Positions 547-33,353 of a stretch of DNA of 33,581 nt are shown here, piece after piece. The notes beneath the pieces were generated by a model that had not been told where the DNA came from, did not search any database, and saw only the letters and a program-made list of their open reading frames with translations. The DNA is from Desulfobulbaceae bacterium (GTDB taxonomy: Bacteria; Desulfobacterota; Desulfobulbia; Desulfobulbales; SURF-16): contig JANTFJ010000001.1 of the NCBI GenBank assembly GCA_024763495.1, positions 1 to 33,581 on the forward strand. The letters are read 5' to 3'. Position 1 is the stretch's first letter. Each line of letters opens with the position of its first letter. The translations under genes and the position numbers were made by a program.

Positions 547-726
547 CTCGGATAAACTGGAGAAGAATTAGTAAGCGTTCACCAGCACCTCATCTTTGTC
601 TATTTGGGCCGGCTTACATATTAGTCATACGTAAGCCGGGCTGATGGCGGAAAGATTAGATGCCCTGTGAGCAGTTACAATTACAGGAGTTAACGAAGTT
701 AGGACGCTTACCCCATGAGTAGTTAC
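547..726. repeat. Mosaic of MITE pieces upstream of iorA
   Basis: gataaactggagaagaatta module (551-570); C/B left end gtaagcgttcaccagcacctcatcttt (571-610); FH right arm ending gccctgtgagcagttac (611-678); inverted FH left end ending cttaccccatgagtagttac (679-726). Confidence 0.7.
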
Positions 727-797
727 AGACACCAAACCCTTTCTGACTGAAATTATACGGCACAGTCGATTTTTTCACCAGATTACAGGAGATAAAC

Positions 798-4590: not shown

Positions 4591-4597
4591 AGTTACA

Positions 4598-4630: not shown

Positions 4631-4695
4631 CAAAGCAGTGCCGGAGAGTATTTTTGCCTTTGGTGATCTGTTACGATATAAAAAGGAGCTTAAAA

Positions 4696-5127: not shown

Positions 5128-5139
5128 ACCGGACAAGGA

Positions 5140-5507
5140 GATAGCGCTCGATAAAGTACACCCAGGCGGCGACACCCCCTTAACGGTAAGGAATTCAGGG
5201 GCACCGACCTCCATGTGCGTGCTTCACGCCCTGCGATAATACATTGGTATATCTCAGGGTTGAAATGCGTGCGATGATACCGGAGAGGCTAAGTTATTTG
5301 TAACTGTTCAGATGTTCCTTAGATTCGAAGTCGAAGTTTATGCCCCTGTCTTGTTATGCTATCTGTTCATTCGGAGTCTCGTTCCTCGCTTACCTGTGCC
5401 TGCGCAGCATACTGGTGTTATTCAAGCAGGCTCAAATGAGCAAAGAGATAAGCACCCTCAAAAACAGGGCAGAACTCCGACTCCGTGAGGTGTCGGTGAA
5501 CGCTTAA
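5140..5507. repeat. Mosaic: family D (sense), E fragment, and inverted C/B carrying an inserted module
   Basis: D from gatagcgctcgataaagtacaccc (5140) to about 5265. gtaactgttcagatg at 5300. Inverted C/B from gttcattcggagtctcgttcctcgcttacc (about 5367) to ggtgaacgcttaa (5507), carrying the ataagcaccctcaaaaacaggg module. Confidence 0.7.
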
Positions 5508-5537
5508 AAATATTAACCATAACTAAAGGAGATAAGA

Positions 5538-6689
5538 ATGAAAAGATTTTTCACATCTACCATGCTGGCCATTGGCGCACTCTGTATGATGCTGAGTTCT
5601 GTTCCGGCTCAGGCGAGCAGTGACACCATCAAGGTCGGTGCTATCCTGGCGGTAACCGGCGGTGCTTCATTTCTCGGGGGCCCTGAATCACGTACTATTC
5701 AGATGCAGGTAGACAAAATTAACGCTGCCGGCGGTATTCACGGTAAAAAAATTGACCTTATTATTAAAGATTCCGGCGCAAACCCGGAAAAAGCCATTTC
5801 CTTTACCAAACAGCTGATCGAAGAAGAACATGTTTTTGCTATTCTCGGACCGTCCACCAGCGGCGAGACCATGAAAATAAAAAACATCTGTGAGCAGGGT
5901 AAGACTATCCTTATTTCCTGTGGCGCCGCAGAGGTTATTGTTAATCCGGTGGCAAAATATGTCTTCAAAACTCCGCAGAAAGACAGCTTCGCAGTTAAAA
6001 AGATATATAATGACATGAATGAAAAGGACATCAGGAAAATTGCGGTTCTGGCCGGGAATACCGGCTTCGGTAAGGCAGGGAAAAAACAACTGTTGACCAT
6101 TGCCCCGGAATTCGGCATCGAGGTTGTTGCCGCTGAAGTGTATGACAAAAAAGCAACTGACCTCAGCGCTGTTGTTGCCAAGTTGATGGCCAACAAGGAC
6201 ATCCAGGCCGTTGTAAACTGGTCAATTGTTCCGGCCCAGGCCATTGTTGCCAAAAATATTCGTCAGGCAGGGTGGGATGTACCTCTATACCAGAGCCATG
6301 GCTTTGGTAACATCAAATATGTTGAAGCTGCCGGAGCTGCTGCCGAGGGTATCATATTCCCGGCCGGTCGGCTGCTGGTTGCCGACGTTCTGCCTGATAG
6401 TAATGTCCAGAAGAAAATACTACTCCAGTATAAGCATGACTATGAGAACAAATTTGATGACACCGCCAGCACCTTCGGCGGCCATGGTTATGATGCAATC
6501 ATGATCCTGGCAAAAGCTGTCGAGGAGGTTGGAGCTGATAAGGAAAAAGTACGGGATGCTATTGAAAACATGAAAAATTTTATCGGAACCGGTGGTGTTT
6601 TCAATTTCTCAGCTACGGATCATAATGGCTTGGATATCGATTCCTTTGCCATGATGACTGTTAAAGACGGCAAATTCGTCCTCTACTAA
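5538..6689 (+). CDS. livK: Periplasmic substrate-binding protein, branched-chain/aromatic amino acid ABC transporter family (type I PBP)
   Basis: 383 aa with signal peptide (MLAIGALCMMLSSVPAQASS) and Leu/Ile/Val-binding-protein-like sequence. AAGGAG RBS. Substrate cannot be inferred from sequence. Confidence 0.85.
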   Translation: MKRFFTSTMLAIGALCMMLSSVPAQASSDTIKVGAILAVTGGASFLGGPESRTIQMQVDKINAAGGIHGKKIDLIIKDSGANPEKAISFTKQLIEEEHVFAILGPSTSGETMKIKNICEQGKTILISCGAAEVIVNPVAKYVFKTPQKDSFAVKKIYNDMNEKDIRKIAVLAGNTGFGKAGKKQLLTIAPEFGIEVVAAEVYDKKATDLSAVVAKLMANKDIQAVVNWSIVPAQAIVAKNIRQAGWDVPLYQSHGFGNIKYVEAAGAAAEGIIFPAGRLLVADVLPDSNVQKKILLQYKHDYENKFDDTASTFGGHGYDAIMILAKAVEEVGADKEKVRDAIENMKNFIGTGGVFNFSATDHNGLDIDSFAMMTVKDGKFVLY

Positions 6690-6728
6690 ACAATCAATAA
6701 CCGTCAGCAAAAATTAATCAACAAACCA

Positions 6729-6755
6729 GGGGACACGAACCTTTTCCGTGTCTCC
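6729..6755 (+). terminator. Hairpin after the binding-protein gene (possible partial terminator or RNA-stability element)
   Basis: ggggacacg (6729-6737) pairs with cgtgtctcc (6747-6755): 9 bp including one G-U. The T-tract is weak (tacttt). Confidence 0.25.
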
Positions 6756-6865
6756 TACTTTAAGAAGCCGGAGAGCAGATGTGATTAATCTCATCTCACT
6801 GACTCTCTTTCGCTGTTTTCAGGAGCGCCATGACCGCAAGCAGGGACAACAGAAATTTATCCTGC

Positions 6866-6903
6866 CTGATCACGGAAAGATTCGGTGCCCTGTGAGCAGT
6901 TAC
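6866..6903 (+). repeat. Solo FH right-end fragment in the livK-livH spacer
   Basis: ctgatcacggaaagattcggtgccctgtgagcagttac closely matches the right arms at 640-678, 17730-17768 and 25795-25832. Confidence 0.7.
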
Positions 6904-6950
6904 ATTCTTACTTTAATTCTGCAATCCACGTCGCATTCTAAAATCAACAA

Positions 6951-7841
6951 ATGACCGCAGAACTGTTCAGCCAATATCTTTTTGCCGGGATAACCTATGG
7001 CATTATCTATGCCATTGTTGCCATCGGTTTTAATATTATTTACAACACCACGGGCATAATTAACTTTGCTCAGGGTGAATTTGTCATGCTGGGCGGCATG
7101 ATTGCCATCAGTCTTAATACCATTATTCCTCTGGTGCCGGCCATTGCTCTAGCCGTGGTTATAACCATGATAATCGGCGCTCTAATCGAAATTATCTTTA
7201 TCCGCTGGCTGGACAACCCCTCTGTTCTGCGGATGATCATTATAACCATTGGCCTGTCAATCCTGATCCGGGAAGTTGCCCTCCATATATGGGGCGAAGG
7301 CGTCCGATCTCTGCCTTATTTTAACGGCAATGAAATCTCCTCTATTAAAATTCTGGAAGCCCAGATTTCCCCCCAGGTTCTCTGGGTTATCGGGATTTGT
7401 GGAATCATGGTCACCCTGCTCAGTATTTTTTTCCGATTTACTTCGCTCGGTCTTGATATGCGGGCCTGTTCAGCCAACAGGCTGGCCGCTACCTTATGTG
7501 GAATAAATGCCAGAAACATGGTAACTTTTTCTTTTATGCTCAGCGCGGGAATTGGAGCCCTTGCCGGTTGCGTCATGTCACCCATCACTTATACCCAGTA
7601 CGACTGCGGCACGGGTCTGGCTATCAAGGGATTTACCGTTGCTGTACTTGGTGGTCTAGGGAACAGCATGGCAGCTGTTGCCGCCGGATTGCTGCTTGGC
7701 ATTATAGAGGCCTTTAGTATTGGAGTTGTACCCCTGGCTTTTCAAGACGCGATTTCCATCAGTATTCTCTTAATCATCCTTTTTGTCCGGCCAAATGGTT
7801 TATTTGGCTGCAATGAGACTGCCAACCTTAAGGAATTCTGA
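6951..7841 (+). CDS. livH: ABC transporter permease, LivH family
   Basis: 296 aa, polytopic and hydrophobic. The N-terminus (LFAGITYGIIYAIVAIGFNIIYNTTG) resembles LivH. Stop overlaps the livM start (ATGA). Confidence 0.85.
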   Translation: MTAELFSQYLFAGITYGIIYAIVAIGFNIIYNTTGIINFAQGEFVMLGGMIAISLNTIIPLVPAIALAVVITMIIGALIEIIFIRWLDNPSVLRMIIITIGLSILIREVALHIWGEGVRSLPYFNGNEISSIKILEAQISPQVLWVIGICGIMVTLLSIFFRFTSLGLDMRACSANRLAATLCGINARNMVTFSFMLSAGIGALAGCVMSPITYTQYDCGTGLAIKGFTVAVLGGLGNSMAAVAAGLLLGIIEAFSIGVVPLAFQDAISISILLIILFVRPNGLFGCNETANLKEF

Positions 7842-8908
7842 TGACACGGCGCAACTATATTCCCATCATGCTGTTTATTACCGCAGTAATTGGAATTCAA
7901 CTGATTACCAAGTTTACTGGAACTAATTATTATCTCACCCAGCTGACCATGACCGCCTATTACTCTCTGGTAATTATCGGTCTCTGCCTGGTCATGGGTT
8001 ATGCCGGACAAATTTCCCTGGGGCACGCCGGTTTTTTTGCCATAGGCGGTTACACCTCGGCAGCCCTTACGACCTGCAACCTGACATCCCTGTTTAAAAA
8101 TGGCAACTCACTGGTCAAATTTCTATCATCCCAGGGAATGTTAATCAAAAGTCAGGATCTTTACGGTGATCCGGTACTTTATGTTAATCCCTGGCTGGCT
8201 GCCATCCTGGCTATAATGCTCACTGTAGCGATCGCCTTCCTGATCGGTATTCCTGTATTAAAGCTGAAAGGGCATTACCTGGCTATGGCTACCTTGGGTT
8301 TTGGCATTATTATATTTCGTATTGTCCTGGCTACTGAAATTTTCGGTGAGGCTGACGGAATATCCGAGGTGCCGGGTTTTACCCTGATCCCGGGAGTGAG
8401 CGTTAACGGTAATTTCGACAACAGAATTATCAACTACTATATTGCCTGCGGTATTGTAGTTATCGGGATTATTCTGCTTCTCAACCTGATAAATTCCAGG
8501 GTAGGACGGGCCCTGCGGGCCATTCATGGCGCGGAAGATGCTGCCAACGCCATGGGAATAAATACTTCTCGATACAAATTATACACATTTGTTATAAGTG
8601 CTGTATTTGCGGCTGTAGCGGGCATATTTCTCACTCATTACAATGGCGGAATCGGCCCGTCTGAGGCAGGCATAATGAAATCAATCCGTTATGTGGCTAT
8701 TGTCGCTATTGGCGGGATGGCAAATATGTGGGGAGCGCTCACTATGGGGGTTATCCTGAATTTCATGTCTCTGCGCGGTATGTTCGGTTCCTATGATGAC
8801 GCTGTCTTTGGCGCTATTTTAATTATCATAATGCTTTTTGCGCCTGAGGGTCTTTTACGCCTGGCTATCTGGCAGAAATTTTTCAAAAAAAACGATAGCG
8901 CTCAATAA
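7841..8908 (+). CDS. livM: ABC transporter permease, LivM family
   Basis: 355 aa, polytopic, LivM-like (GYAGQISLGHAGFFAIGGY). The last four codons plus the stop (DSAQ*) lie inside a family-D repeat. Confidence 0.85.
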   Translation: MTRRNYIPIMLFITAVIGIQLITKFTGTNYYLTQLTMTAYYSLVIIGLCLVMGYAGQISLGHAGFFAIGGYTSAALTTCNLTSLFKNGNSLVKFLSSQGMLIKSQDLYGDPVLYVNPWLAAILAIMLTVAIAFLIGIPVLKLKGHYLAMATLGFGIIIFRIVLATEIFGEADGISEVPGFTLIPGVSVNGNFDNRIINYYIACGIVVIGIILLLNLINSRVGRALRAIHGAEDAANAMGINTSRYKLYTFVISAVFAAVAGIFLTHYNGGIGPSEAGIMKSIRYVAIVAIGGMANMWGALTMGVILNFMSLRGMFGSYDDAVFGAILIIIMLFAPEGLLRLAIWQKFFKKNDSAQ

Positions 8909-9125
8909 AGTACACCTGGACGGCGTCAACCCCATAACTGTAAGGGATTCAAGTACATCGCCATGTGCGTGCTTGACGCCCCGCGATAACACATCAGTAT
9001 ATCACAGGGATAAAAGGCTGGCACCCATACTACGGGCATAAACTTCGCTTACTAATGCTATGTAAGACAGACTTATCGCGTGCAGGTAAGCGCAGACTCC
9101 GGATGAAGTTCAGCTGAATAGTTAC
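8894..9125. repeat. Hybrid: family D 5' part fused to an E-family right half
   Basis: gatagcgctcaataaagtacacctgg... (D) runs to about 9010. Then ggctggcacccatactacgggcataaacttcgc...cagctgaatagttac, which matches 16330-16413. Confidence 0.7.
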
Positions 9126-9140
9126 AAAGGTATCAGACTA

Positions 9141-9905
9141 ATGGCCCTGCTGGAAATAAATAACTTAAATCGTTCATTTGGTGGTCTTAAAGCGGTCAAT
9201 AATGTCAGCTTTTCTGTCCAGCCCGACACTATAAAGGCGGTCATCGGCCCTAATGGAGCCGGAAAAACGACCCTGTTTAATCTTATTTCCGGTAACTTAC
9301 CGGCTGATAATGGTAATATTTTATTTAATTCTACTTCGATCACTGACCTCAAGCCATATCAGATTGCCGGCCTGGGGATCAGCCGAACTTTTCAAAATAT
9401 CAAACTCTTTCCCGGGATGACTGCCCTGGAAAACGTAATGATAGGCCGCCATGTCAAAAGCAAGGCTGGATTCTGGGCCGGGATGCTTAACCTGCCTGCC
9501 AGTCGGCGTGAAGAAAAATCAATCACTGAAAATTCACTGGAATTGCTGGAACTGCTGGAAATTGCTCCATTTGCTCACATTGATGTCTCAAACCTGGCCT
9601 TTGGCCAGCAAAGGGCCGTAGAATTTGCCAGGGCTCTGGCCTCTGAGCCCAAACTATTGCTGCTCGATGAACCAGCAGCCGGGCTCAATATATACGAAAC
9701 AGCTGAAATTGCCCGGCTGATAACCAAAATTCAAAAAAAAGGAATCACCATTCTTCTTGTCGAGCATGACATGTCACTGGTTATGGATATTTCCGATGAA
9801 ATTGTAGTCTTATGTTTTGGCGAAAAAATTGCTGATGATCTACCGGCAGAAATTCAACAAAACCCTGAGGTGATCCAGATTTATCTGGGTGATGATAATG
9901 CTTAA
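9141..9905 (+). CDS. livG: ABC transporter ATP-binding protein, LivG family
   Basis: 254 aa with Walker A GPNGAGKTT, Walker B LLLLDEP and H-loop VEHD. Confidence 0.9.
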   Translation: MALLEINNLNRSFGGLKAVNNVSFSVQPDTIKAVIGPNGAGKTTLFNLISGNLPADNGNILFNSTSITDLKPYQIAGLGISRTFQNIKLFPGMTALENVMIGRHVKSKAGFWAGMLNLPASRREEKSITENSLELLELLEIAPFAHIDVSNLAFGQQRAVEFARALASEPKLLLLDEPAAGLNIYETAEIARLITKIQKKGITILLVEHDMSLVMDISDEIVVLCFGEKIADDLPAEIQQNPEVIQIYLGDDNA

Positions 9906-10620
9906 AATCAGAAACCTTGAAGCCGGATACGGCAAACTTCGGGTCTTAAAACGAATATCCATGCACGTTGCCGCGGGTGAAATAGTAACCATAATCGGTG
10001 CAAACGGAGCAGGTAAAACAACCCTGCTTTATACCATTGCCGGAATGATAAAAATCATGGCCGGCGATATCAACCTTTTTGATAATACTCTTGGGAAAAT
10101 AAAAGCTGAACAAATTGTTGCTCAGGGCTGCTCTCTGGTTCCTGAAGGCCGCCAGGTTTTTTCTACAATATCGGTTCAGGAAAATCTTATCCTGGGCGGC
10201 TATGTTCAGTCTAAGAAAAAAGGTTATGACAAAAAACAAGAACTTGATAAAATTTTTGATATTTTTCCGGTACTCAAGGAAAGACAGGATCAATTAGCAG
10301 GTACTCTTTCAGGTGGCGAACAACAGATGCTGGCCATGGGCCGGGCATTAATGGCAAAACCAAAACTGATTATGATGGATGAGCCATCAACAGGTTTAGC
10401 TCCCCTGATTGTTAAAGACATCTTCCAGATAATTCATCGCCTGCGTAAGGGCGGCAATACTGTTTTACTGGTCGAACAAAATGCCCGGGCTGCTTTGGCC
10501 ATTGCTGATCGCGGTTATGTTCTCGAAACCGGGAAAATAATTCTCCAGGGGCCGGCTGATGATTTGCTGGATAATTGCGATGTTCAGAGAGCCTACCTGG
10601 GACGAGATGTAGGCAAATAA
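9898..10620 (+). CDS. livF: ABC transporter ATP-binding protein, LivF family
   Basis: Walker A GANGAGKTT, signature LSGGEQQ, Walker B IMMDEP. Start ambiguous (GTG 9889, ATG 9892, ATG 9898); 9898 gives the usual MLKIRNL N-terminus and overlaps the livG stop. Confidence 0.9.
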   Translation: MLKIRNLEAGYGKLRVLKRISMHVAAGEIVTIIGANGAGKTTLLYTIAGMIKIMAGDINLFDNTLGKIKAEQIVAQGCSLVPEGRQVFSTISVQENLILGGYVQSKKKGYDKKQELDKIFDIFPVLKERQDQLAGTLSGGEQQMLAMGRALMAKPKLIMMDEPSTGLAPLIVKDIFQIIHRLRKGGNTVLLVEQNARAALAIADRGYVLETGKIILQGPADDLLDNCDVQRAYLGRDVGK

Positions 10621-10623
10621 CTT

Positions 10624-10889
10624 GTAACTACTCATGGGGTAAGCGCCTTAACTTCGCTAACCCCGGTAATTGGTAAGCGTAGACTCCGTTCGGTGCCCTG
10701 TAACCAGTTACAAATACTGAGATTTGCAATCATTAGTCCCTTAGAAATTATTTTCGTGTTATTTATGGCAAGAAATCTAAAATTTTCTTTGAAATAAACA
10801 ATCTGCATCTACTGTTAAGGGACTTATCCAGAACCTTAATTTCTTTTCCAGTTTATCTGGGCTAGGTACTTACCCCCATGAGTAGTTAC
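10624..10889. mobile_element. Composite MITE filling the livF-paaK2 spacer
   Basis: About 22-bp terminal inverted repeats, gtaactactcatggggtaag and cttacccccatgagtagttac. Contains an FH unit (10624-10711) plus a passenger of about 155 bp that recurs inverted at about 25546-25735. No clear target duplication found. Confidence 0.7.
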
Positions 10890-10907
10890 TGATAAAGGAG
10901 ACATATA

Positions 10908-12206
10908 ATGTACTGGGAAAAAGATAAAGAATGCATGGCCCGGGACGATCTTGAACAACTGCAACTTGAAAGATTACAGGCAACATTGTACAGGGTAACT
11001 ACTAATGTCCCTTTTTATAGAAAAAAATTCAGGGAGCTGCAAATAGACCCGGATGGATTCAGCTCCCTTGAAGAACTGCAGGGACTTCCCTTTACCACCA
11101 AGGATGATCTACGAAAAAATTATCCCTACGGTCTTTTTGCCGTACCCCTCAGAGATATTGTCCGGGTTCATTCATCTTCCGGGACTACCGGCACGGCAAC
11201 GGTTGTCGGCTACACCAAAAATGATATTAAAACATGGTCAAACATGACAGCCAGGGTATTGACTGCTGCCGGAGTAGGCAAGGACGATGTAGTACAGATT
11301 GCTTTTGGTTATGGTCTGTTTACCGGCGGATTCGGACTGCATTACGGAGCTGAAAGGATCGGAGCTTCGGTCATCCCTATTTCCAGTGGAAATACAAAAC
11401 GCCAGATCCAGATCATGCAGGATTTCAAAACAACCGCCCTGGTCTGCACCCCAAGTTATGGACTTCTCCTGGCTGACACCATGCAGGAAATGGACATAAA
11501 CATTAATGCTCTCGATTTACGTTTCGGACTTTTTGGCGGTGAACCATGGTCGGAGGGAATGCGGGAAGAAATCCAGAACAAACTACATATTCAGGCCACT
11601 GACAACTATGGCTTAAGTGAAGTCATGGGTCCGGGCGTAGCCGGTGAATGCCGGGAACGCCAGGGACTACATATTAATGAAGACCATTTCTTAATTGAAA
11701 TTATTAATCCCGACTCTCTGGAGCCGGCCAAACCCGGAGAAATTGGTGAAGTTGTCATTACTACCCTGACCAAGGAAGCCTTTCCGGTTATTCGCTACCG
11801 GACAAGAGACCTGACCAGAATTATTGAAGCCCCCTGTGCCTGTGGTCGCACCCTGCGTCGAATGGAGCGGGTTCTGGGCCGCACTGATGATATGTTAATA
11901 ATCAAGGGGGTAAATGTTTATCCGATGCAGATTGAAGCAGTTCTTTTTGACATTGAAGGAACAGAGCCGCATTATCAGATAGTTGTTGAAAGAGATGGCC
12001 GCCTGGACAAAATAACCGTCATGGTTGAAGTAGTTGAAGAAATATTCTTTGACCAGATGAAAAAACAACGACAGTTAGTTGATCACATCAAGAAAAGGCT
12101 GGCAGGCGAACTTGGTATTGGCATTGAAGTAAAACTGGTAGAAGAAAAGAGCCTGGAAAGATATGAGGGTAAATCCCAGCGGGTGCTTGACAAACGCAAG
12201 TTGTAA
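10908..12206 (+). CDS. paaK: Phenylacetate-CoA ligase family, second paralog
   Basis: 432 aa, colinear with 3289-4590 (roughly half to 60% identical by eye). Same SSGTTG, YGLSE and [15 protein letters not shown] motifs. AAAGGAG RBS. Confidence 0.85.
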
Positions 12207-12214
12207 AAAAAATC

Positions 12215-12337
12215 GACAGCGCTCAACAAAATACACCCGGGGCGGCGACAAGCCCATACCTGTAAAGGGGTTCAGGAACTCCGCCATGTAGGTACTCCAT
12301 GCAATACATCGGTATATCGCAGGGTTGAAGCGCGTAC
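12215..12337 (+). mobile_element. Family D MITE, sense to paaK2
   Basis: Ends gacagcgctc and gaagcgcgtac. Flanks AAAAAATC (12207-14) and ATAAAATC (12338-45) match 7/8. Starts 8 nt after the paaK2 stop. Confidence 0.7.
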
Positions 12338-12361: not shown

Positions 12362-12685
12362 GTAAGTGTTCGCCAGCACCTCATCTTTGCCCATTTGAGC
12401 CTGCTTGAATAGCACGAGTATGCTACGCAGGCACAAATGGTAATTACTCACGGGGTAAGCACCTTAAGTTCGCTACCACCCGTAATTGTAACTGTTTACA
12501 GGATGCCGGAGATAGTCCGGTGCCGCGTATTAGTCATACGTAAACCGGGCTGATGGCGGAAAGAGGTAAGCGCAGACTCCGTTCGGTAACCTGTGAGCAG
12601 TTACCACAAATGAACAAATCTAAGGCACTGATAAAAGCTTAGAAACTTAAATGTTGCAATGATTTGCTCCCTGATGAACGGTTAC
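12362..12685 (+). mobile_element. C/B-family MITE (outer element of a nested pair)
   Basis: TIRs gtaagtgttcgccag and ctgatgaacggttac. Flanks AAATATTC (12354-61) and AAATATTG (12686-93) match 7/8. Interrupted by the element at 12440-12604. Confidence 0.85.
12440..12604 (+). mobile_element. FH-family MITE nested inside the C/B element
   Basis: Ends gtaattactcacggggtaagc and cctgtgagcagttac. Perfect 8-bp duplication CACAAATG (12432-39 and 12605-12). Confidence 0.9.
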
Positions 12686-15592: not shown

Positions 15593-15764
15593 GTAACTAT
15601 TCAGCTGCAATTCATACGGTCACGATCAGGTTGTCTCACATAGCACCGGCATGCTGTGTGCCCGTCAGATCACGAAAATCTTCAGCACCCTGCAACCACT
15701 TACAAATGCAGCGGGTTGCATACATTTAGGCGCTTACCTCATGAATAGTTACAAAAATAGTTAC
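15593..15764. repeat. Hybrid-ended MITE in the rpsM-rpsK spacer
   Basis: E-type left end gtaactattcagctgc, FH-arm-like interior, inverted FH left end gcgcttacctcatgaatagttac. The terminal 12-mer atagttacaaaa is tandemly duplicated (15745-15768). Confidence 0.6.
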
Positions 15765-16239: not shown

Positions 16240-16413
16240 GTAACTATTCACGTAGGGGCGAAAAACTGCCCAAACCACCGACCTGTAACTGTTCAGATGT
16301 GCTTTAGCTGTGCATGATAAGGCTGGCACCCATACTACGGGCATAAACTTCGCATACTAATGCTATGTAAGACAGACTTATCGCGTGCAGATGAAGTGCA
16401 GCTGATTAGTTAC
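16240..16413 (+). mobile_element. E-family MITE
   Basis: Ends gtaactattcacgtagg and gtgcagctgattagttac. Flanks ATTAAAAC (16232-39) and ATTAAAAA (16414-21) match 7/8. Relatives at 17985-18162 and, inverted, at about 33179-33353. Confidence 0.8.
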
Positions 16414-16515: not shown

Positions 16516-16803
16516 GCTGAACGATTACTAACAGTTCAATGTGCTTTATCAATTGTCCATTCAGGCTGGCGCAACATACTAGGAGGCTGTCCGAGAATGC
16601 CCTTTTACCCCAACTCTGTGTTATTTTGAAAAAATAATGCTCGCAATATCAACTATATGGCTGTGCTTATTTTTGCAAAATGCCTTGATTTGAGAAAAAA
16701 TGTCTATTCTAAGTCAAAATCACCGGCAAAATTGAAACAACGGTGAATCCCTTACAGTTACAGAGTAGTCACAGCCTGGGGGTGTAGATTATTGAGTAAT
16801 GTC
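16516..16803. repeat. Mosaic: E fragment, family G copy, and truncated family D (sense to rpmJ)
   Basis: 16516-16580 is E-interior-like. 16581-16712 is a G copy (aggaggctgtccgagaat...ctattct). 16741-16803 read on the - strand gives gacattactcaataatctacaccc...taactgtaagggattca, which is the D 5' part, starting 2 nt after the rpmJ stop. Confidence 0.55.
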
Positions 16804-16934: not shown

Positions 16935-17084
16935 ATAACTACTGACTGGGGTAAGCGCCTTAATTGCGCTAAACACCGTAATTGTAACTGGTTACAGGTG
17001 CCGTAGGCTTTAGCCCGGCTCAACATATTAATCATACGTGAGCCGAACTGATCACGGAATGATCTGGTGTCCTGTAAGCAGTTA
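16935..17084 (+). mobile_element. FH-family MITE in the infA-rpmJ spacer
   Basis: Ends ataactactgactggggtaagcgcc and gtgtcctgtaagcagttac. Perfect duplication TCCTGATT (16927-34 and 17085-92). Confidence 0.9.
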
Positions 17085-17113
17085 CTCCTGATTGACATTT
17101 TAATTTAAAGTAA

Positions 17114-17645: not shown

Positions 17646-17768
17646 GTAAATACTCATGGGGTAACGTCCTAACTTCGCTAACCCCTGTAATTGTAACTGG
17701 TTACAGGGTGCTAACCATACGTAAGCCTAACTGATCGCGGAAATATGCGGTGCCCTGTGAGCAGTTAC
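17646..17768 (+). mobile_element. FH-family MITE
   Basis: Ends gtaaatactcatggggtaacg and ggtgccctgtgagcagttac. Perfect duplication CCATTTAT (17638-45 and 17769-76). Confidence 0.9.
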
Positions 17769-17801: not shown

Positions 17802-17973
17802 GTAACTACTCACAGGGCACAGGATCCGTAGTATCGGAAACTCGCTTACCTGTTCATTCAGGAGTGCGAAGTGTAGTTGTGCCATCGAGCAGGCCTACAT
17901 GGGCGAAGAGGTAAGCACCCTGAAAAACAGGGGGCATAAACTAAGACTCCGTGTGGTTCAGCTGAATAGTTAC
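17802..17973. repeat. Hybrid-ended MITE (inverted FH arm on the left, E end on the right)
   Basis: Left end gtaactactcacagggcac, right end ggttcagctgaatagttac. Interior resembles inverted C/B and carries the gtaagcaccctgaaaaacaggg module. The flanks do not match. Confidence 0.6.
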
Positions 17974-17984
17974 TCATTTTTTAT

Positions 17985-18162
17985 GTAACTATTCAGGTAG
18001 CGGGCAAAAAACTGCCGCAACAACCGCACCGACCTGTAACTGATCAGAGGTAAGCGAACAAAGTGAGAATCCGTGTGCTTTAGCTGTGCGTAAGGCTGGC
18101 GCAGCATATTAATATGTAGACAGCCTGATCCTGCGCAGATGAAGTGCAACTGAACAGTTATC
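17985..18162 (+). mobile_element. E-family MITE next to the map stop codon
   Basis: Ends gtaactattcaggtagcggg and gtgcaactgaacagttatc. Flanks TTTTTTAT (17977-84) and ATTTTTAT (18163-70) match 7/8, but they are low complexity and therefore weak evidence. Confidence 0.65.
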
Positions 18163-18937: not shown

Positions 18938-19009
18938 AAAATATGTGTGCCTTACAGCTTAACTTCAACTAACCCACAAAAAGTGGAAGTGGACTTAGAA
19001 TCTTTAGGA

Positions 19010-19039
19010 CTCTTTTCAGTTCCCCCTTGAGGGGTGTAA
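19010..19039. repeat. 30-nt module K (small GC hairpin ccccttgagggg)
   Basis: ctcttttcagttcccccttgaggggtgtaa is 29/30 identical to 25646-25675, which lies inside the composite MITE at 25521-25832. Confidence 0.55.
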
Positions 19040-19184
19040 GTGCCTTGGGGTAACTCGCTGTAAATAGTTTCAAAATTACCTCTTCAGTTTCTTGTTTTTT
19101 GTTACAGCTTCTCAGGAGTAAGGCACTAATAACGAAAAATATTTCGTACAACTAAAATGAATAATTGGGGAGTATCTAATACCT

Positions 19185-19359
19185 GTAAGCGTTCACCAGC
19201 ACCTCATCTTTGCCAATTTGAGGCTGCTTGAATAGCACCTTATGCTGCGCAGGCACAAGTAAGCGAGTAACACGAGACTCCGAATGAAATATCTAAGGCA
19301 CGGGTAATCGCTTAGAGATTTAAATGTTTCAAAGATTTGCTCCCTGGTGAGCCCCTAAC
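19185..19359 (+). mobile_element. C/B-family MITE abutting the secY stop codon
   Basis: Left TIR gtaagcgttcaccag; right end is degenerate (ctggtgagcccctaac). Flanks TAATACCT (19177-84) and TACTACCT (19360-67) match 7/8. The right copy contains the secY stop. Confidence 0.8.
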
Positions 19360-19361
19360 TA

Positions 19362-20678
19362 CTACCTTCTACCCTTAATCCTTCCACTCTTCAGGAAACC
19401 ATCATAATTCTGCGATACAGTAAGAGATTCCATTTGAGATAATGTATCAATTGCAACACCGACAACAATCAATAGCGCTGTACCACCAAAATAGAAAGGA
19501 ACATTCAACTTATTGATTAATATTGTCGGAAGAACGCATACAGCACTGACGTATATAGCACCAATCACAGTAAGGCGAACCATTACCTTATCAATAAATT
19601 CTGCTGTTCGCTTTCCAGGCCTGATACCGGGAATAAAGCCTCCATGTTTTTTTAAATTCTCAGCCACATCTACTGGATTAAATGTAACGGCAGTATAAAA
19701 AAAACAGAAGAAAACAATCATTCCGACATAAAGCAGGGTATGAAGCGGACTTCCCCAACTTAGAACACTGGAAACCTGCTGAATCCAGTCAATTTTAATA
19801 AAACCGCCAATAGTTGCAGGAAACATCATAATAGATGATGCAAAGATTGGAGGAATAACCCCTGACATATTGATTTTCAATGGCAGATGAGACCTTTGTC
19901 CTCCGTACATCTGTCTGCCGACCATTCGCTTTGCATATTGAATTGGAATGCGCCGTTGAGCAGTTTCAAAGAAAATAATCAAGGCAATTACTCCGGCCAT
20001 CAATACCAGGAGAATTGGGAGAAATATTACGGTCATCTCTCCAGAACTAATGAGCTGATAAGTATTAACAATTGCTGCTGGCATCCGGGCAACAATACCT
20101 GCAAAGATTATAAGTGATATCCCATTGCCTATACCACGTTCAGTCATCTGCTCACCAAGCCACATGATAAAGGCAGTACCCGCAGTCAAGGTCAGAACAG
20201 TCATCAGGCGAAAACTCCAGCCTGGAGATATTACAATCATTTCACTACCGGTTGGAGCGGCCATACCTTCCAGGCCGATACTGATAAACAATCCCTGAAT
20301 AAGACTCAGGCCTACAGTAGCATATCGGGTATACTGGGTAATTTTACGTCTACCAGCCTCACCTTCTTTAGATAATGCTTCAAGCTGAGGAATAACAACT
20401 GTCAACAACTGAAATATAATCGATGCACTGATATAGGGCATAATGCCCAAAGCAAATATTGAAAAGTTCTCCAATGCACCGCCAGAGAACATATTAAACA
20501 TGCCGAAAATAGTTCCGGCATTTTTTTCAAAAAAAGCGGCCAGGGCTTCACCGTTTATTCCAGGAGTAGGAATTTGAACGCCGGCCCTGTAGACTGCAAG
20601 CATCAAGAGAGTAAAAATAATACGTTTCCGAAGCTCAGGAACGTTTGCTGCATTCTGCAGTCCACCCGATGTAGCCAT
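19362..20678 (-). CDS. secY: Preprotein translocase subunit SecY
   Basis: 438 aa, polytopic; [12 protein letters not shown] and [15 protein letters not shown] motifs. The stop codon lies inside the target duplication of the adjacent MITE. Confidence 0.95.
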
Positions 20679-20682
20679 CTAT

Positions 20683-21123
20683 TTATTCCTCAAAGCTGCC
20701 ACCAGCAGCTTCGATTTTTTTTCGAGCAGATTCACTCAGCTTATCTACTGCAACAGTAAATGATTTGGAAACCTCTCCATCGCCAAGTATTTTTATCTTT
20801 TGATCCTGATTTGATATTAAGCCGACAGCAACTAAAGTTTCACGATCAATCCGGCTACCGCTATCAAAACGATCAAGATCTTTTACATTAATAATAGAAT
20901 ACTCTTTCTTAAATAGATTAGTAAATCCCCGTTTTGGCAAACGACGCTGCAAAGGCATCTGTCCGCCCTCAAAACCTGGTTTAACCCCACTGCCTGAACG
21001 AGATTTATAACCATTATGACCTCGTCCCGATGTTTTTCCATGACCCGAACCTCGACCCCGTCCAAGTCTTTTTTTCTGTTTTCTAGAACCTGGATGGGGA
21101 GACAAATTGCTTAAATTAATCAT
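20683..21123 (-). CDS. rplO: 50S ribosomal protein L15
   Basis: 146 aa; Gly/Arg-rich N-terminus ([18 protein letters not shown]). Confidence 0.95.
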
Positions 21124-21305
21124 GACAATTCCTCCATACTAACCAAATGCTTAACCTTGTTAAACATTCCCCTGATTTCAGGAGTATCCTTGCGGATAAC
21201 AGTTTTATTCATTTTAGTAAGGCCCAGGCCTATTACTGTTGCACGAATTTTCTTAGTGCTGCCTATTACACTCTTTTTCAAGGTCATCTTAAGCTCATTA
21301 GCCAT
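21120..21305 (-). CDS. rpmD: 50S ribosomal protein L30
   Basis: 61 aa; 4-nt overlap with rplO; expected position. Confidence 0.9.
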
Positions 21306-21392
21306 GTCAAAACCTACTTATAAAATATAAAAAGCCACAAGCACACCTTAAAAGATGTAAAATTGCGGCAGTATGTTGTTTTCTTTTATTAA

Positions 21393-21899
21393 TCAGGCAA
21401 GAATCTCCGCTACATCCTTACCTCGTATTGAGGCGATTTCTTCAGCTGTTCTTAGTCTCCGCAAGCCATTCAAAGTAGCTTTTACTAAATTATGCGGATT
21501 ATGAGAACCAAGACATTTGGTCAATATATTCTGGACACCAGCAGCTTCAAGTACTGCCCGGACAGCACCGCCGGCAATAACTCCAGTACCTTCTGATGCG
21601 GGTTTCAGCATTACTGAACCAGCTCCATATTTCCCCTTTATCTCATGAGGAATACTGATATCTGTTATTGAAACCTGCTGCATATCCTTTCTTGCTCTCT
21701 CTACACCTTTTCTAATTGCTTCAGGTACCTGATTTGCTTTACCAAGACCATAACCGACCTGGCCATTGCCATCGCCGACAACAACAATCGCACTGAAACT
21801 GAAGCGCCTGCCACCTTTTACAACCTTTGCCACTCGGTTAATATATACAATTTTCTCGATAAATTGATCATCAATTTTATCGTTTCTGGAATCCGCCAA
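21393..21899 (-). CDS. rpsE: 30S ribosomal protein S5
   Basis: 168 aa; [24 protein letters not shown]. Confidence 0.95.
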
Positions 21900-23359: not shown

Positions 23360-23419
23360 GTAACTACTTACCGGGTAAGCGCCTTAATTGCGCTGACCAC
23401 CGTAATTGTAACTGGTTAT
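23360..23419 (+). repeat. Short FH left-end unit in the rpsH-rpsZ spacer
   Basis: gtaactacttaccgggtaagcgccttaattgcgctgaccaccgtaattgtaactggttat ends 1 nt before the rpsZ stop codon. No duplication found. Confidence 0.6.
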
Positions 23420-24193: not shown

Positions 24194-24352
24194 GTAACTA
24201 CTTACAGAGGTACAACATCTTCCCGCGATCAGCCTGTATTACATAGCCACAGTATGCTGCGCCAGTCTGATCACGAAAATCTCCAGCAGCCTGTAAGCAG
24301 TTACAAATACAGAGGTTTGCACTCATTAAGCGCTCACCCCATGAGTAGTTAC
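24194..24352 (-). mobile_element. FH-family MITE (inverted) in the rplX-rplE spacer
   Basis: Ends gtaactacttacagaggtac and caccccatgagtagttac. Flanks CCTTATAG (24186-93) and ACTTATAG (24353-60) match 7/8. The right copy abuts the rplX stop codon. Confidence 0.85.
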
Positions 24353-25520: not shown

Positions 25521-25832
25521 GTAACTACTCATGGGTGGTAAGCTCCTAGCCCAGATAAACTGGAAGAGAAATTAAGGCTCTGGATAAGTCCCTTAACAGT
25601 AGATGCAAGTTGTTTATTTCAAAGAAATTTTTCAATTTCTTGCCACTCTTTTCAGTACCCCCTTGAGGGGTGTAAAAAGCACCAAAATTAATTCTAAGGG
25701 ACTAATGGTTACAAATCTCTGTATTTTTAAGTGGTTACAGGTGCCGTAGATTTTTGTCATCAGCCCGGTGCTGCCAAGTAATACGTAAAACATGCTGATG
25801 GCGGTAATATGCGGTGCCCTGTGAGCAGTTAC
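25521..25832 (+). mobile_element. 312-bp composite FH MITE with passenger modules
   Basis: Ends gtaactactcatgggtggtaagc and ggtgccctgtgagcagttac. Perfect duplication GAACTATC (25513-20 and 25833-40). The interior is an inverted copy of the 10712-10866 passenger plus module K. Confidence 0.9.
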
Positions 25833-26837: not shown

Positions 26838-26943
26838 ATTATTTCCTCATCATCAATATAATTAAAGATGATAAATTTATCTCTACCTATCATGATTATA
26901 CAAAATATGATTATTTATATGTCAATGCTCGTATATGAAAACC

Positions 26944-27114
26944 GTAAGCGTTCACCAGCACCTCATCTTTGCCCATTTGAGCCTGCTTGAATAGCACCAG
27001 CACCAGTATGCAGCGCAGGAACAGGTAAGCGAGGAACGAGACTCCGAATGAACAAATTGGTAAACGCTTAGAGTCTTAAATGTTGCAAAGAATTACTCCC
27101 TGGTGAACGGTTAC
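26944..27114 (+). mobile_element. C/B-family MITE, best-preserved copy
   Basis: 15-bp TIRs gtaagcgttcaccag and ctggtgaacggttac. Perfect duplication TGAAAACC (26936-43 and 27115-22). Confidence 0.92.
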
Positions 27115-27232
27115 TGAAAACCAACGAGGAAAGGTCAACTACTACATATCAAAATTAGCTTATTTTCTGTTCCCTGTATAATAAAAGAGAAACGGAATAA
27201 AAAAACTGGTCTACAGAGGTGTTAAGGGAAAA

Positions 27233-28078: not shown

Positions 28079-28234
28079 GTAACTGCTCCAGAGCACCGAA
28101 TTTTTCCACCATCAGCCTGGCTTACGTATAGCTAATAGGCGACACCAGACCGATGACGAAAATCTCCGGCACCCTGTAAACAGTTACAGTTCAGTGTTTT
28201 TCACGATCATAAATTTTAAGGTGTGAGCAGTTAC
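28079..28234. mobile_element. FH-arm MITE (the same arm type at both ends)
   Basis: Ends gtaactgctccagagcaccg and ggtgtgagcagttac, with an internal ...ccctgtaaacagttac at 28187. Flanks CTAATTTC (28071-78) and CTGATTTC (28235-42) match 7/8. Confidence 0.8.
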
Positions 28235-28782: not shown

Positions 28783-28936
28783 GTAACCGTTCACCGGGGC
28801 TTCTTGTTTACTTATAACTCCAGCCTGTAGGCATTCTCCAGTGTCTTAGATTAAGTTCATTGGAGGTCTCTGTGCTGCATACTGGTGCTTGTAAGCAGGC
28901 CCAGATGAACAAAAATGAGGTTCTGGTGAAACTTAC
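28783..28936 (-). mobile_element. C/B-family MITE, inverted, diverged
   Basis: Ends gtaaccgttcaccgggg and ttctggtgaaacttac. Perfect duplication GAAGATTT (28775-82 and 28937-44). Confidence 0.9.
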
Positions 28937-29399: not shown

Positions 29400-29554
29400 G
29401 TAACTACTCACGGGGGGTAGGCACCTAATATTCGCTACCCCCTAATTTATAACTGTTTACAGGTGCCGGAGATTTCCGCGATCAGACTGGCACAGCATAC
29501 TGGTGCTGTGTAAGACAGACAGTTCGCGGGAAAATTCGGTGCCCGAGCAGTTAC
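29400..29554 (+). mobile_element. FH-family MITE abutting the rplB stop codon
   Basis: Ends gtaactactcacggggggtaggc and cggtgcccgagcagttac. Perfect duplication CTATGATC (29392-99 and 29555-62). The right copy contains the rplB stop. Confidence 0.92.
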
Positions 29555-31575: not shown

Positions 31576-31714
31576 GTAAGCGCTCGATGAACATCACCCT
31601 GCGATGTACCGATGTATTATCGCAGGCCGTGAAGCATGTACATAACAGCGTCCCTGAACCCCTTACAGTTATGGGTAGTTGTCGACGCTTGGGTGTACTT
31701 TATTGAACACTATC
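31576..31714 (-). mobile_element. Family D MITE, sense to the rplC-rplD transcript
   Basis: Ends gtaagcgctcgatgaac and ctttattgaacactatc. Flanks GGTATTTT (31568-75) and AGTATGTT (31715-22) match 6/8. Lies 38 nt upstream of the rplD ATG. Confidence 0.7.
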
Positions 31715-32959: not shown

Positions 32960-33114
32960 GTAAGCGCTCCATGAACACCAACCTGCACGGGCTTCACAAC
33001 CCCTGCAATATACCGATGTATTATCACAGGGCATGGAGTACGTATATGGCGGCATCACTGAACCCCTTATAGTTAGGGGTTGTCGCCTCCTGGATGTACT
33101 TTAGAGCGCTACCC
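32960..33114 (-). mobile_element. Family D MITE, sense to the tuf-rpsJ transcript
   Basis: Ends gtaagcgctccatgaac and ctttagagcgctaccc. Perfect duplication TATTTTTT (32952-59 and 33115-22), although the sequence is low complexity. Confidence 0.8.
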
Positions 33115-33131: not shown

Positions 33132-33353
33132 GTAACTACTCATGGGGTAAGCACCTAATGATTGCAAATCTAACTATTTATAACTATCCAGCTGCACTTC
33201 ATCTGGGGGCGATAATGCTGTCTTATATAGCATTCTGCGCCAGGCTTATCACACACATCTAAAGCACACGGAGTCTCACTTCGTTCGCTTAACTCTGAAT
33301 AATTACTAAACAGTGGTTGTGACAGTTTTTCGCCCCCGACCTGAATCGGTAAT
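33132..33353. repeat. Hybrid: FH left end fused to an inverted E-family element
   Basis: gtaactactcatggggtaagcacctaatgattgcaaatc..., then ataactatccagctgcacttcatctg...cagtttttcgcccccgacctgaatcggtaat. The second part is colinear with the reverse complement of 16240-16413. Confidence 0.6.

What the first reader, a model, noticed from the sequence alone, without database searches (positions are those of the whole stretch)
26936..27122. Superfamily of TIR elements with GTAA tips and 8-bp target duplications: IS66-type MITEs in at least four end-families
Seen directly: fifteen elements of 120-310 bp are bracketed by 8-bp direct repeats lying immediately outside termini that read GTAA... on the left and ...TTAC on the right. 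Eight duplications are perfect: CACAAATG 12432/12605, TCCTGATT 16927/17085, CCATTTAT 17638/17769, GAACTATC 25513/25833, TGAAAACC 26936/27115, GAAGATTT 28775/28937, CTATGATC 29392/29555 and TATTTTTT 32952/33115. Six match 7/8 (elements at 12215, 12362, 16240, 19185, 24194, 28079) and one matches 6/8 (31576). The end families are: C/B, GTAAGCGTTCACCAG...CTGGTGAACGGTTAC; FH, GTAACTACTCAYGGGG...CCCTGTGAGCAGTTAC; E, GTAACTATTCAGCTG...CAGCTGAATAGTTAC; D, GAYAGCGCTC...GAGCGCTTAC. Established knowledge, as I recall it from ISfinder and Han et al. 2001: IS66-family elements have inverted repeats starting 5'-GTAA (often GTAAGCG) and generate 8-bp duplications. Inference: these are non-autonomous IS66 derivatives mobilised in trans, since no tnpA/B/C gene lies in the window. 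Several end-families sharing only the GTAA tip, at a density of about one element per kb of this window, would be an unusually rich MITE system. The hand tally is about 5 kb, roughly 15% of the window.
Basis: partly seen in the sequence, partly recalled or inferred. Interest (0 to 1): 0.85.

Follow-up and report, generated by a model that had tools for sequence, protein, structure and literature searches.

The report
IS66-type MITEs crowding a ribosomal operon
The gaps between genes in this Desulfobulbaceae contig, including most gaps inside the ribosomal-protein operon, hold small non-coding jumping elements (MITEs) of the IS66 type that moved after closely related species diverged: a known kind of element at unusual density.

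Summary
All 15 listed elements are present; eight have perfect 8-bp flanking duplications, six match 7/8 and one 6/8. A strict scan finds 5 perfect duplications in the window and 60 in 1.2 Mb of related DNA, against 0 when the flanks are offset. Two spacers are empty in a relative with about 93% DNA identity, each with one copy of the 8-mer, so these are real insertions. The elements are 120-320 bp, non-coding and fold as hairpins. They are widespread in Desulfobulbales genomes and metagenomes.

The IS66 reading is supported directly for the C family only. Complete 2.7-3.1 kb IS66 elements (TnpB_IS66 plus DDE_Tnp_IS66) in metagenomes begin with the same 19 bases. Their hosts look planctomycetal. 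No IS66 gene was found in about 0.5 Mb of Desulfobulbales genome and operon loci. The F, H, E and D families share GTAAnnnnTCA and the 8-bp duplication, but no autonomous partner was found for them.

The ribosomal operon is about 4.8 kb longer than in a compact relative.

Unexpected extra: 17-42-nt directional mini-insertions (CAG|GTAAGCG...GACTCCG) sit inside the MITEs, with no inverted repeat and no duplication. They are unexplained.

Verdict: new members of a known kind; moderate interest.

The parts
26944..27114 (+). C-family MITE, 171 bp (the element of the finding). Left end GTAAGCGTTCACCAG, internal second right end TTGGTAAACGCTTAG (about 27058-27072), outer right end CTGGTGAACGGTTAC. 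Duplication TGAAAACC at 26936-26943 and 27115-27122.
   Evidence: folds as a long hairpin, z = -2.75
19185..19358 (+). C-family MITE with a degenerate right tip (..CTGGTGAGCCCCTAAC). Duplication TAATACCT/TACTACCT, 7/8. Absent from the secY-map spacer of relative L073.
   Evidence: The independent Logan contig L001 is 100% identical to window 19193-21879 and ends inside this element.
12362..12685 (+). C-family MITE interrupted by a nested FH element. Duplication AAATATTC/AAATATTG, 7/8.
12440..12604 (+). FH MITE, 165 bp, nested inside the C element. Duplication CACAAATG, perfect.
   Evidence: uninterrupted C copies serve as the empty site
28783..28936 (-). C-like MITE in reverse orientation, 154 bp. 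Duplication GAAGATTT, perfect.
16935..17085 (+). FH MITE, 151 bp, left tip mutated to ATAA. Duplication TCCTGATT, perfect. The IF1-L36 spacer of relative L073 is empty, with one copy of the 8-mer (which contains the L36 ribosome-binding site).
17646..17768 (+). Short FH MITE, 123 bp. Duplication CCATTTAT, perfect.
25521..25832 (+). FH MITE, 312 bp, carrying a nested unrelated repeat of about 150 bp. Duplication GAACTATC, perfect.
29400..29554 (+). FH MITE, 155 bp, abutting the L2 stop codon. Duplication CTATGATC, perfect.
   Evidence: hairpin z = -3.77
24194..24352 (-). FH MITE, 159 bp, in the L24-L5 spacer. Duplication CCTTATAG/ACTTATAG, 7/8. L073 has an empty site with CTATAAGG once; L071 and L070 are also empty, with diverged sequence there (spacers of 26-27 bp against 195 bp).
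28079..28234 (.). H-type MITE, 156 bp. Duplication CTAATTTC/CTGATTTC, 7/8.
16240..16413 (+). E-family MITE, 174 bp (GTAACTATTCA...TGATTAGTTAC). Duplication ATTAAAAC/ATTAAAAA, 7/8.
32960..33114 (+). D-family element, 155 bp: GTAAGCGCTC at one end, GAGCGCTACCC at the other (no GTAA tip). Duplication TATTTTTT, perfect.
31576..31713 (+). D-family element in the L3-L4 spacer. Duplication GGTATTTT/AGTATGTT, 6/8.
12215..12329 (-). D-family element. Duplication AAAAAATC/ATAAAATC, 7/8.
10624..10889 (.). 266-bp element with a perfect 16-nt inverted repeat (GTAACTACTCATGGGG/CCCCATGAGTAGTTAC). No clean duplication. Contains a nested repeat.
5306..5516 (-). C-like copy without a clean duplication. Carries two mini-insertions.
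8894..9125 (.). D copy fused to the right part of an E copy. The D end overlaps the last 15 nt of the permease ORF (7841-8908), including its stop codon.
15593..15753 (.). Chimeric element with an E-type left end and an F-type right end, in the S13-S11 spacer. No clean duplication.
17802..18161 (.). Two adjacent elements, 17802-17973 (H-type left end, E-type right end) and 17985-18161 (E family). No clean duplications.
571..727 (.). Chimera of a C left arm, an H right end and a reversed F arm. No duplication.
9085..9101 (+). 17-nt mini-insertion GGTAAGCGCAGACTCCG inside an E copy; three other E copies lack it. Others of this class: 5372-5394(-), 5447-5485, 10672-10688, 12565-12581, 17910-17951, 18049-18073, 19258-19282, 27024-27046, 33269-33293(-).

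Best explanation
The repeats are several related families of MITEs: non-coding deletion derivatives of insertion sequences that keep only the terminal inverted repeats. A DDE transposase made elsewhere in the genome binds the GTAA... ends. It inserts the element at a staggered 8-bp cut, which after repair leaves the 8-bp direct repeat.

The ends are those of the IS66 family (tnpA-tnpB-tnpC elements). The most likely driver is therefore one or a few IS66-family transposases acting in trans.

Insertions favour AT-rich 8-mers in intergenic DNA. In the ribosomal operon they are tolerated because they carry no consensus intrinsic terminator, and in at least two spacers the downstream gene keeps its ribosome-binding site (in one, IF1-L36, the duplicated 8-mer contains it).

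Shown: the elements, the duplications, empty sites, distribution, and identity of the C-family terminus with bona fide IS66 elements. Inferred: that an IS66 transposase of this lineage moves them, and that the F, H, E and D families use the same or a sister enzyme.
For: Real insertions:
- 8-bp duplications directly abut the tips: 5 perfect and 4 one-mismatch in the window against 0 at four offsets; 60 against 0 in 1.2 Mb.
- Empty sites in L073, a relative with 92.7% DNA identity over 7 kb. The L24-L5 spacer has CTATAAGG once where the window has CTATAAGT[159 bp]CTATAAGG. The IF1-L36 spacer has TATCAGGA once where the window has AATCAGGA[151 bp]AATCAGGA.
- Spacer lengths differ among relatives exactly where elements sit.
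- A nested insertion has its own duplication.

Distribution:
- The 18-mer FH end hit 68 or more loci. Nearly all are Desulfobulbales genomes, including Desulfosediminicola flagellatus and Desulfogranum marinum. Twenty have a perfect 8-mer duplication, all but one at 156-200 bp (one at 129 bp).

Link to IS66:
- The C left end hit 118 metagenome stretches. Most are roughly 150-bp MITEs (often 154 bp) with perfect duplications. About a dozen are IS66 elements.
- L132 and L152 are 99.9% identical over 2713 bp with different flanks. Their ORFs hit PF05717 at 1e-33 and PF03050 at 1.5e-57. Their ends are GTAAGCGTTCACCAG.. and ..GTGGTGAACGCTTAC.
- The IS66 hallmarks are an inverted repeat starting GTAAGCG and an 8-bp direct repeat (PMC11946415). 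Published IS66 end pairs read GTAAGCGTCC and GTAACCGTCC (PMC12888890).
- All family tips share GTAAnnnnTCA.

Behaviour in the operon:
- The duplicated 8-mers are 70% AT against a background of 52%.
- No terminator-like site on the transcribed (-) strand falls inside an element, and neither promoter-like nor terminator-like sites are enriched.
Against: - No IS66 gene was found in the window or in about 0.5 Mb of Desulfobulbales genome and operon loci.
- For one matching IS66 (L144), the nearest named TnpC relatives are in Planctomycetes, so the cognate enzyme in this lineage is not identified.
- The full-length IS66 copies examined show no clean 8-bp duplication: L132 5/8, L152 3/8, and none in L144, L187 or Stieleria L213.
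- The 19-base identity between the IS and the MITE was imposed by the search pattern. Beyond it the sequences diverge, so the C MITE is not a simple deletion product of these particular IS copies.
- The F, H, E and D families have no autonomous counterpart in any data seen.
- Copies within the window are only 60-90% alike.
Confidence: 0.8

Rival explanations
1. The elements are true MITEs, but a transposase of another family that also makes 8-bp duplications (ISL3, IS256, IS1595, IS6 or an undescribed one) moves them. The resemblance to IS66 ends is convergent, at least for the F, H, E and D families.
For: No IS66 gene in about 0.5 Mb of Desulfobulbales genome and operon loci. The F, H and E tips read GTAACTA/GTAACTG rather than GTAAGCG. 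No autonomous partner was found for them.
Against: Bona fide IS66 elements carry the C-family terminus base for base. Published IS66 right ends also read GTAAC... All families share GTAAnnnnTCA and chimeric copies combine ends of different families, which suggests one recognition system. As I recall from ISfinder, the other 8-bp families have ends starting GG.., not GTAA.
Confidence: 0.08
2. The elements are fossils. They spread in the past, and the transposase is now lost from this genome, so nothing moves them today.
For: Copies in the window are 60-90% alike. About half lack clean duplications or have mutated tips. No transposase was found.
Against: Eight perfect duplications are in the window. 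The complement of insertions is almost completely different from a relative at about 93% DNA identity, so movement continued after these species split. A MAG contig cannot show that a gene is absent from the genome.
Confidence: 0.1
3. The repeats are resident structured elements of the operon (REP/BIME-like units, attenuators or RNA-processing sites), not transposons, and the flanking 8-mers are coincidental.
For: They fold into stable hairpins. They sit between genes of one transcription unit. The five D copies all have the same orientation relative to transcription (from the coordinates).
Against: Offset controls give 0 against 60 duplications. Orthologous spacers in relatives are empty. The same elements occur at unrelated loci in many genomes. 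There is no Rfam match.
Confidence: 0.02

Closest known systems
IS66 family insertion sequences (tnpA-tnpB-tnpC; e.g. IS66, IS679, ISPa75)
   Same: Ends start GTAAGCG, with GTAAC.. at the other end, and insertion makes an 8-bp duplication (PMC11946415, PMC12888890). The C MITE shares its first 19 bases with complete IS66 elements found here.
   Different: The elements here are 120-320 bp and have no genes. Most families have GTAACTA or GTAACTG tips. C-type MITEs carry a second, internal right end. No cognate IS66 was seen in the host lineage.
E622, a MITE of Pseudomonas syringae (Stavrinides et al. 2012, J Bacteriol 194:509; cited in PMC6053426; recalled, paper not held)
   Same: As I recall, it is a non-autonomous element tied to an IS66-family transposon. 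This would be a precedent for IS66-derived MITEs.
   Different: E622 is a single 611-bp family at low copy number in a plant pathogen. Here there are at least four shorter families at high density in Desulfobulbales.
Correia/NEMIS elements of Neisseria and BOX elements of pneumococci
   Same: Short intergenic hairpin repeats, co-transcribed with flanking genes, with modular or mosaic subtypes. BOX has a variable number of internal boxB units, as the 25-nt tandem units do here.
   Different: Correia elements duplicate TA. BOX has no demonstrated duplication or known transposase. The ends are unrelated.
Small dispersed repeats (SDR) of Nostoc and Anabaena (Elhai et al. 2008, Genome Res 18:1484; cited in PMC3116915; recalled, paper not held)
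   Same: For the mini-insertions only: 20-30-nt dispersed units, often inside MITE-like hairpin repeats, present or absent between copies, with no duplication and no known enzyme.
   Different: Different phylum and different sequence. Here the units are directional with fixed termini (GGTAAGCG...GACTCCG), a variable middle of 1-25 nt, and a (C/G)AG context upstream.

Membership tests
MITE (miniature inverted-repeat transposable element) | Small size (well under 1 kb) and no coding capacity | tested here: met
   Of 60 elements with perfect duplications, 59 are 100-312 bp and one is 61 bp, with a mode near 150-160 bp. No ORF of 80 aa or more lies wholly within an element.
MITE (miniature inverted-repeat transposable element) | Terminal inverted repeats | tested here: met
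   10-16 of 16 terminal positions complementary. The D family is weaker, with one non-GTAA tip.
MITE (miniature inverted-repeat transposable element) | Target-site duplication of fixed length directly outside the ends | tested here: met
   8 bp; 60 perfect cases against 0 at offset flanks.
MITE (miniature inverted-repeat transposable element) | Insertion polymorphism, with empty sites holding one copy of the target | tested here: met
   The L24-L5 and IF1-L36 spacers of L073 hold one copy of the 8-mer; L24-L5 is also empty in L071 and L070, where the sequence has diverged.
MITE (miniature inverted-repeat transposable element) | An autonomous element with the same ends in the same genome | tested here: inconclusive
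   IS66 elements with the same ends exist in metagenomes, probably in other phyla. None was found in Desulfobulbales loci. The whole genome was not available.
IS66 family (as non-autonomous derivatives) | Inverted repeats starting 5'-GTAAGCG | tested here: met
   True for the C left end and the D left end. The C right end and the F, H and E ends read GTAAC.., as do the published IS66 right ends of ISPa75 and ISPsy43.
IS66 family (as non-autonomous derivatives) | 8-bp direct repeats at the insertion site | tested here: met
   the family rule is from PMC11946415.
IS66 family (as non-autonomous derivatives) | Ends shared with an element that encodes TnpB_IS66 and the DDE_Tnp_IS66 transposase | tested here: met
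   C family only: L132/L152 (2713 bp) and L144 (3111 bp); Pfam hits on the L132 ORFs and the precomputed PF03050 domain of the L144 TnpC; ends. Not met or not testable for F, H, E and D.
IS66 family (as non-autonomous derivatives) | Mobilisation by an IS66 transposase | not testable with these tools
   Needs a transposition assay or a closed genome with a matching IS.
REP/BIME elements mobilised by RAYT | No target duplication; a conserved GTAG/CTAC tetranucleotide; an associated RAYT gene | tested here: not met
   8-bp duplications are present, the tips are GTAA/TTAC, and the 20 Pfam-scanned ORFs of the window gave only metabolic, transport and ribosomal/RNA polymerase/SecY domains.
SDR-like very small mobile repeats (mini-insertions only) | Units under 50 nt, dispersed, present or absent at the same position of otherwise homologous sequences, with no duplication | tested here: met
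   72 hits against 0 for a reversed-motif control. Size classes of 17, 23, 25 and 40 nt (16, 22, 24 and 39 counted without the leading G). At least 7 sites in 4 MITE families. Precise gaps in alignments.
SDR-like very small mobile repeats (mini-insertions only) | Presence or absence at an orthologous locus in two genomes (proof of independent movement) | tested here: inconclusive
   No orthologous MITE pair was available in the fetched loci.

The most novel reading that the evidence does not exclude
The MITEs host a second, smaller tier of mobile DNA. These are directional 17-42-nt units with fixed termini (G-GTAAGCG...GACTCC-G) and no inverted repeat or duplication. They are inserted after (C/G)A at seven or more different positions in four MITE families and are sometimes amplified into 25-nt tandem arrays.

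If they move on their own, by an enzyme or a templated repair process not yet described, they would be among the smallest mobile elements known. They would be the first SDR-like system outside cyanobacteria, and one whose left terminus copies the IS66 tip.
Probability: 0.35. Interest if true: 0.75.

Novelty: new member of a known kind. Interest (0 to 1): 0.45.

Why it matters
It documents a MITE superfamily for which four full-text literature searches (two naming cable bacteria or Desulfobulbales) found no description. The superfamily is spread through Desulfobulbales, the order that contains the cable bacteria. One of its families is tied by sequence to IS66, a family whose transposition chemistry is poorly understood.

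Practical points:
- These repeats break metagenome assemblies. Many matches lie 80-100 nt from contig ends.
- They inflate intergenic DNA even inside the S10-spc-alpha operon: 20.1 kb here against 15.3 kb in a compact relative.
- They differ almost completely between species at about 93% DNA identity, so they can serve as strain or species markers.

The tolerated insertions between nearly every pair of ribosomal protein genes would allow a direct test of how hairpin repeats affect operon mRNA processing. The mini-insertions are the part most likely to lead to something new.

Tried and rejected
- Searched for an autonomous partner among the GTAA/TTAC pairs with perfect duplications out to 5-6 kb in the genome loci: none longer than 312 bp.
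- tblastn with a remembered IS66 TnpB (later validated at 82% identity to annotated tnpB) and with real TnpA, TnpB and TnpC from an Aminobacter plasmid: no hit in the window or in Desulfobulbales loci. A weak hit in L038 proved to be ClpP.
- Plasmid pB171 was not in the collection.
- Rfam gave nothing in the window. In seven viral loci it gave only a C4 antisense RNA in L093, about 1.4 kb from that locus's mini-insert-like match.
- The FH left end in viral contigs: 0 hits.
- The mini-insertion in viral contigs: hits collapse to one phage-repeat family, a few loci at about chance level (my estimate is 5-10 expected), and one Desulfobulbaceae-like contig. I did not use them as evidence.
- Rejected readings of the mini-insertions:
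  - Hammerhead ribozyme: no stem II.
  - Excision footprints: no second copy of a duplication.
  - IS200/IS605-type or IS110-type derivatives: no long element with the same ends.
- Looked for orthologous MITE pairs differing by a mini-insertion: none in the data.
- Checked IS66 copies for 8-bp duplications: none clean.
- Promoter and terminator scans showed no enrichment.
- Papers on MITEs in cable bacteria, in Desulfobulbales or in ribosomal operons: none found.

Full report
**Setting.** The window is a whole 33,581-bp contig. Bases 798-12206 carry plus-strand genes: indolepyruvate ferredoxin oxidoreductase, two phenylacetate-CoA ligase paralogues, an ACT protein and a branched-chain amino-acid ABC transporter. 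Bases 12805-32915 carry the S10-spc-alpha ribosomal protein operon on the minus strand. The SecY protein is 88% identical to proteins named Desulfobulbaceae bacterium.

**Observation.** The element of the finding is as described: TGAAAACC | GTAAGCGTTCACCAG ... CTGGTGAACGGTTAC | TGAAAACC at 26936-27122.
- All eight perfect duplications are real. One right copy is shifted by one base, and one D-family element lacks a TTAC tip.
- The six 7/8 cases and the 6/8 case were reproduced.
- I scanned for GTAA...TTAC pairs 60-450 bp apart with at least 10/16 terminal complementarity. This gives 5 perfect and 4 one-mismatch 8-mers directly outside the tips. None appear when the compared 8-mers are moved 8-20 nt outwards.
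- Self-comparison shows 4.4 kb of repeated intergenic DNA, 13% of the window.

**They are insertions.** I fetched the same operon from relatives:
- L073: SecY 99% identical, DNA 92.7% identical over 7 kb.
- L071 and L072: SecY 96%.
- L070: SecY 94%.
- L074: SecY 88%.

Spacer lengths differ exactly where the elements sit. L24-L5 is 195 bp here against 25-27 bp in the relatives. IF1-L36 is 188 bp against 15-31 bp. S11-S4 is 229 bp against 12-94 bp.

In L073 the L24-L5 spacer reads CTATAAGG once, where the window has CTATAAGT[159-bp element]CTATAAGG. The IF1-L36 spacer reads TATCAGGA once, where the window has AATCAGGA[151 bp]AATCAGGA. Where the window and L073 both have long spacers, the inserted elements differ. 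The complement has therefore turned over since two species of about 93% identity split.

From S10 to L17 the operon spans 20.1 kb here and 15.3 kb in L074.

An independent Logan assembly of the same organism is identical over 2,687 bp and stops inside the C element at 19185. This argues against a chimeric contig.

**Distribution.** Almost all are in Desulfobulbales. They include one Desulfobulbaceae MAG with dozens of copies, often 80-100 nt from contig ends. Others are Desulfocapsa, Desulfopila, Desulfogranum marinum DSM 2058, the complete genome of Desulfosediminicola flagellatus, and Desulfurivibrionaceae. About 17 chance hits would be expected over the whole collection (my estimate), and at least three of the listed hits look like that. 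Twenty matches have a perfect 8-mer duplication directly before a GTAAC-type tip, all but one at 156-200 bp (one at 129 bp). Over all 1.2 Mb fetched there are 60 elements with perfect duplications against 0 in three offset controls, and none is longer than 312 bp. The duplicated 8-mers are 70% AT against a background of 52%, with G or C favoured at positions 1 and 8.

**Link to IS66.** The family is defined by inverted repeats that start GTAAGCG and by 8-bp direct repeats (PMC11946415). Published ends include GTAAGCGTCCGG.. and GTAACCGTCCGG.. (PMC12888890). That is the same G/C difference as between the two C ends here.

The metagenome scan with the first 19 bases of the C MITE returned 118 stretches.
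- Most are roughly 150-bp MITEs (often 154 bp), commonly with perfect duplications and a recurring architecture. A left end and an internal right end enclose about 107 bp, followed by about 30 nt and a second right end.
- About a dozen are full insertion sequences. L132 and L152 are 99.9% identical over 2,713 bp with unrelated flanks. They start GTAAGCGTTCACCAGCACC and end ..GTGGTGAACGCTTAC. They encode a 115-aa TnpA-like protein, a TnpB (PF05717, 1e-33) and a 580-aa transposase (PF03050, 1.5e-57, with weaker, sub-threshold matches to the IS66 zinc-finger and C-terminal domains).
- L144 is a second type of 3,111 bp.

So the C terminus is a genuine IS66 terminus.

Limits of this evidence:
- The 19-base identity was imposed by the pattern, and the sequences diverge after it.
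- The closest named relatives of the L144 transposase are planctomycetes.
- A Stieleria copy has related but not identical ends.
- None of the full-length copies shows a clean duplication.
- No IS66 gene occurs in the window or in about 0.5 Mb of Desulfobulbales genome and operon loci.
- The F, H, E and D tips align with the C tips as GTAAnnnnTCA, and chimeric copies combine ends of different families. This suggests related enzymes but does not prove it.

**Effect on the operon.** No terminator-like site on the transcribed (-) strand falls inside an element, and neither promoter-like nor terminator-like sites are enriched. Elements fold into long hairpins (z = -2.8 and -3.8). Rfam has no match. 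In the two best-resolved cases the downstream gene keeps its ribosome-binding site; in IF1-L36 the duplicated 8-mer contains it, and in L24-L5 the site lies downstream of the insertion. These points fit tolerated, read-through insertions. Function was not tested.

**Mini-insertions.** Copies of one MITE family differ by precise short blocks:
- GGTAAGCGCAGACTCCG (17 nt) in one E copy and not in three others.
- 23-25-nt versions (GGTAAGCGA-N5-7-GAGACTCCG) in C and E copies.
- 39-42-nt versions with an internal hairpin.

In about 1 Mb (window, genome and operon loci, and the first 80 metagenome loci) there are 72 such units (65 distinct contexts) against 0 for a reversed-motif control, in discrete sizes. 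They are preceded by (C/G)AG in about 85% of cases and inserted after an A that belongs to the host copy. Over the wider 1.2-Mb set, 63 of 68 lie in repeated DNA, at seven or more different positions in four families. Tandem 25-nt arrays occur. They have no inverted repeat and no duplication. No long element shares their ends. No orthologous pair was available to prove independent movement. Ten lie in the window. They recall the small dispersed repeats of Nostoc (Elhai et al. 2008, recalled; cited in PMC3116915). I leave them unexplained.

**Verdict.** These are previously undescribed MITE families of IS66 type. They moved after the window's species split from a relative at about 93% DNA identity, and they are unusually dense in an essential operon. 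The kind of element is known, so the novelty is moderate. The mini-insertions deserve a separate look.

Noticed in passing
window 5372-5394(-), 5447-5485, 9085-9101, 10672-10688, 12565-12581, 17910-17951, 18049-18073, 19258-19282, 27024-27046, 33269-33293(-); also L035, L051, L057 (tandem arrays): Directional 17-42-nt mini-insertions G-GTAAGCG...GACTCC-G inside MITEs, preceded by (C/G)AG. They are present or absent between copies of one family and have no inverted repeat or duplication. Tandem 25-nt arrays occur in some loci. No mechanism was found.
   Followed up: partly
L132 (complement of about 552-3264), L152, L144, L187, L207; also L099, L101, L107, L110, L116, L133: Complete IS66-family elements of 2713 and 3111 bp with ends GTAAGCGTTCACCAG, from freshwater and other metagenomes. 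For the 3111-bp type the nearest named relatives are in Planctomycetes. None shows a clean 8-bp duplication.
   Followed up: partly
window 26944-27114; L096-L174 generally: C-type MITEs carry three end copies: a left end, an internal right end about 107 bp in, and an outer right end about 45 bp further. The duplication flanks the whole unit. FH elements are similarly built from a 48-nt F arm plus an H element with its own better inverted repeat.
   Followed up: partly
window 1-148, 16575-16710; 10700-10866, 25545-25700, 18969-19129: Further repeat families without GTAA tips (one containing GGAGGCTGTCCGAGAAT, one containing CTTTTCAGTNCCCCCTTGAGGGGTGTAA). They are shared with other Desulfobulbales loci and are sometimes nested inside the MITEs. 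The contig starts inside one of them.
   Followed up: no
window 8894-8908: A D-family element overlaps the last 15 nt of the branched-chain permease ORF (7841-8908), including its stop codon.
   Followed up: no
window 5140, 8894, 12215 (minus orientation in plus-strand operons); 31576, 32960 (plus orientation in the minus-strand operon): All five D copies have the same orientation relative to transcription. With five copies this is only suggestive (about p = 0.06).
   Followed up: no
window 3289-4590 and 10908-12206: Two phenylacetate-CoA ligase paralogues, about 72% identical in DNA, 7.6 kb apart. They account for the only long non-MITE repeat in the window.
   Followed up: no
window 23360-23418: A roughly 60-nt half element (the F arm alone, bounded by GTAAC.. 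and ..GGTTAT) inserted in the S14-S8 spacer. It is absent from L073, L071 and L070 and has no clear 8-bp duplication.
   Followed up: partly
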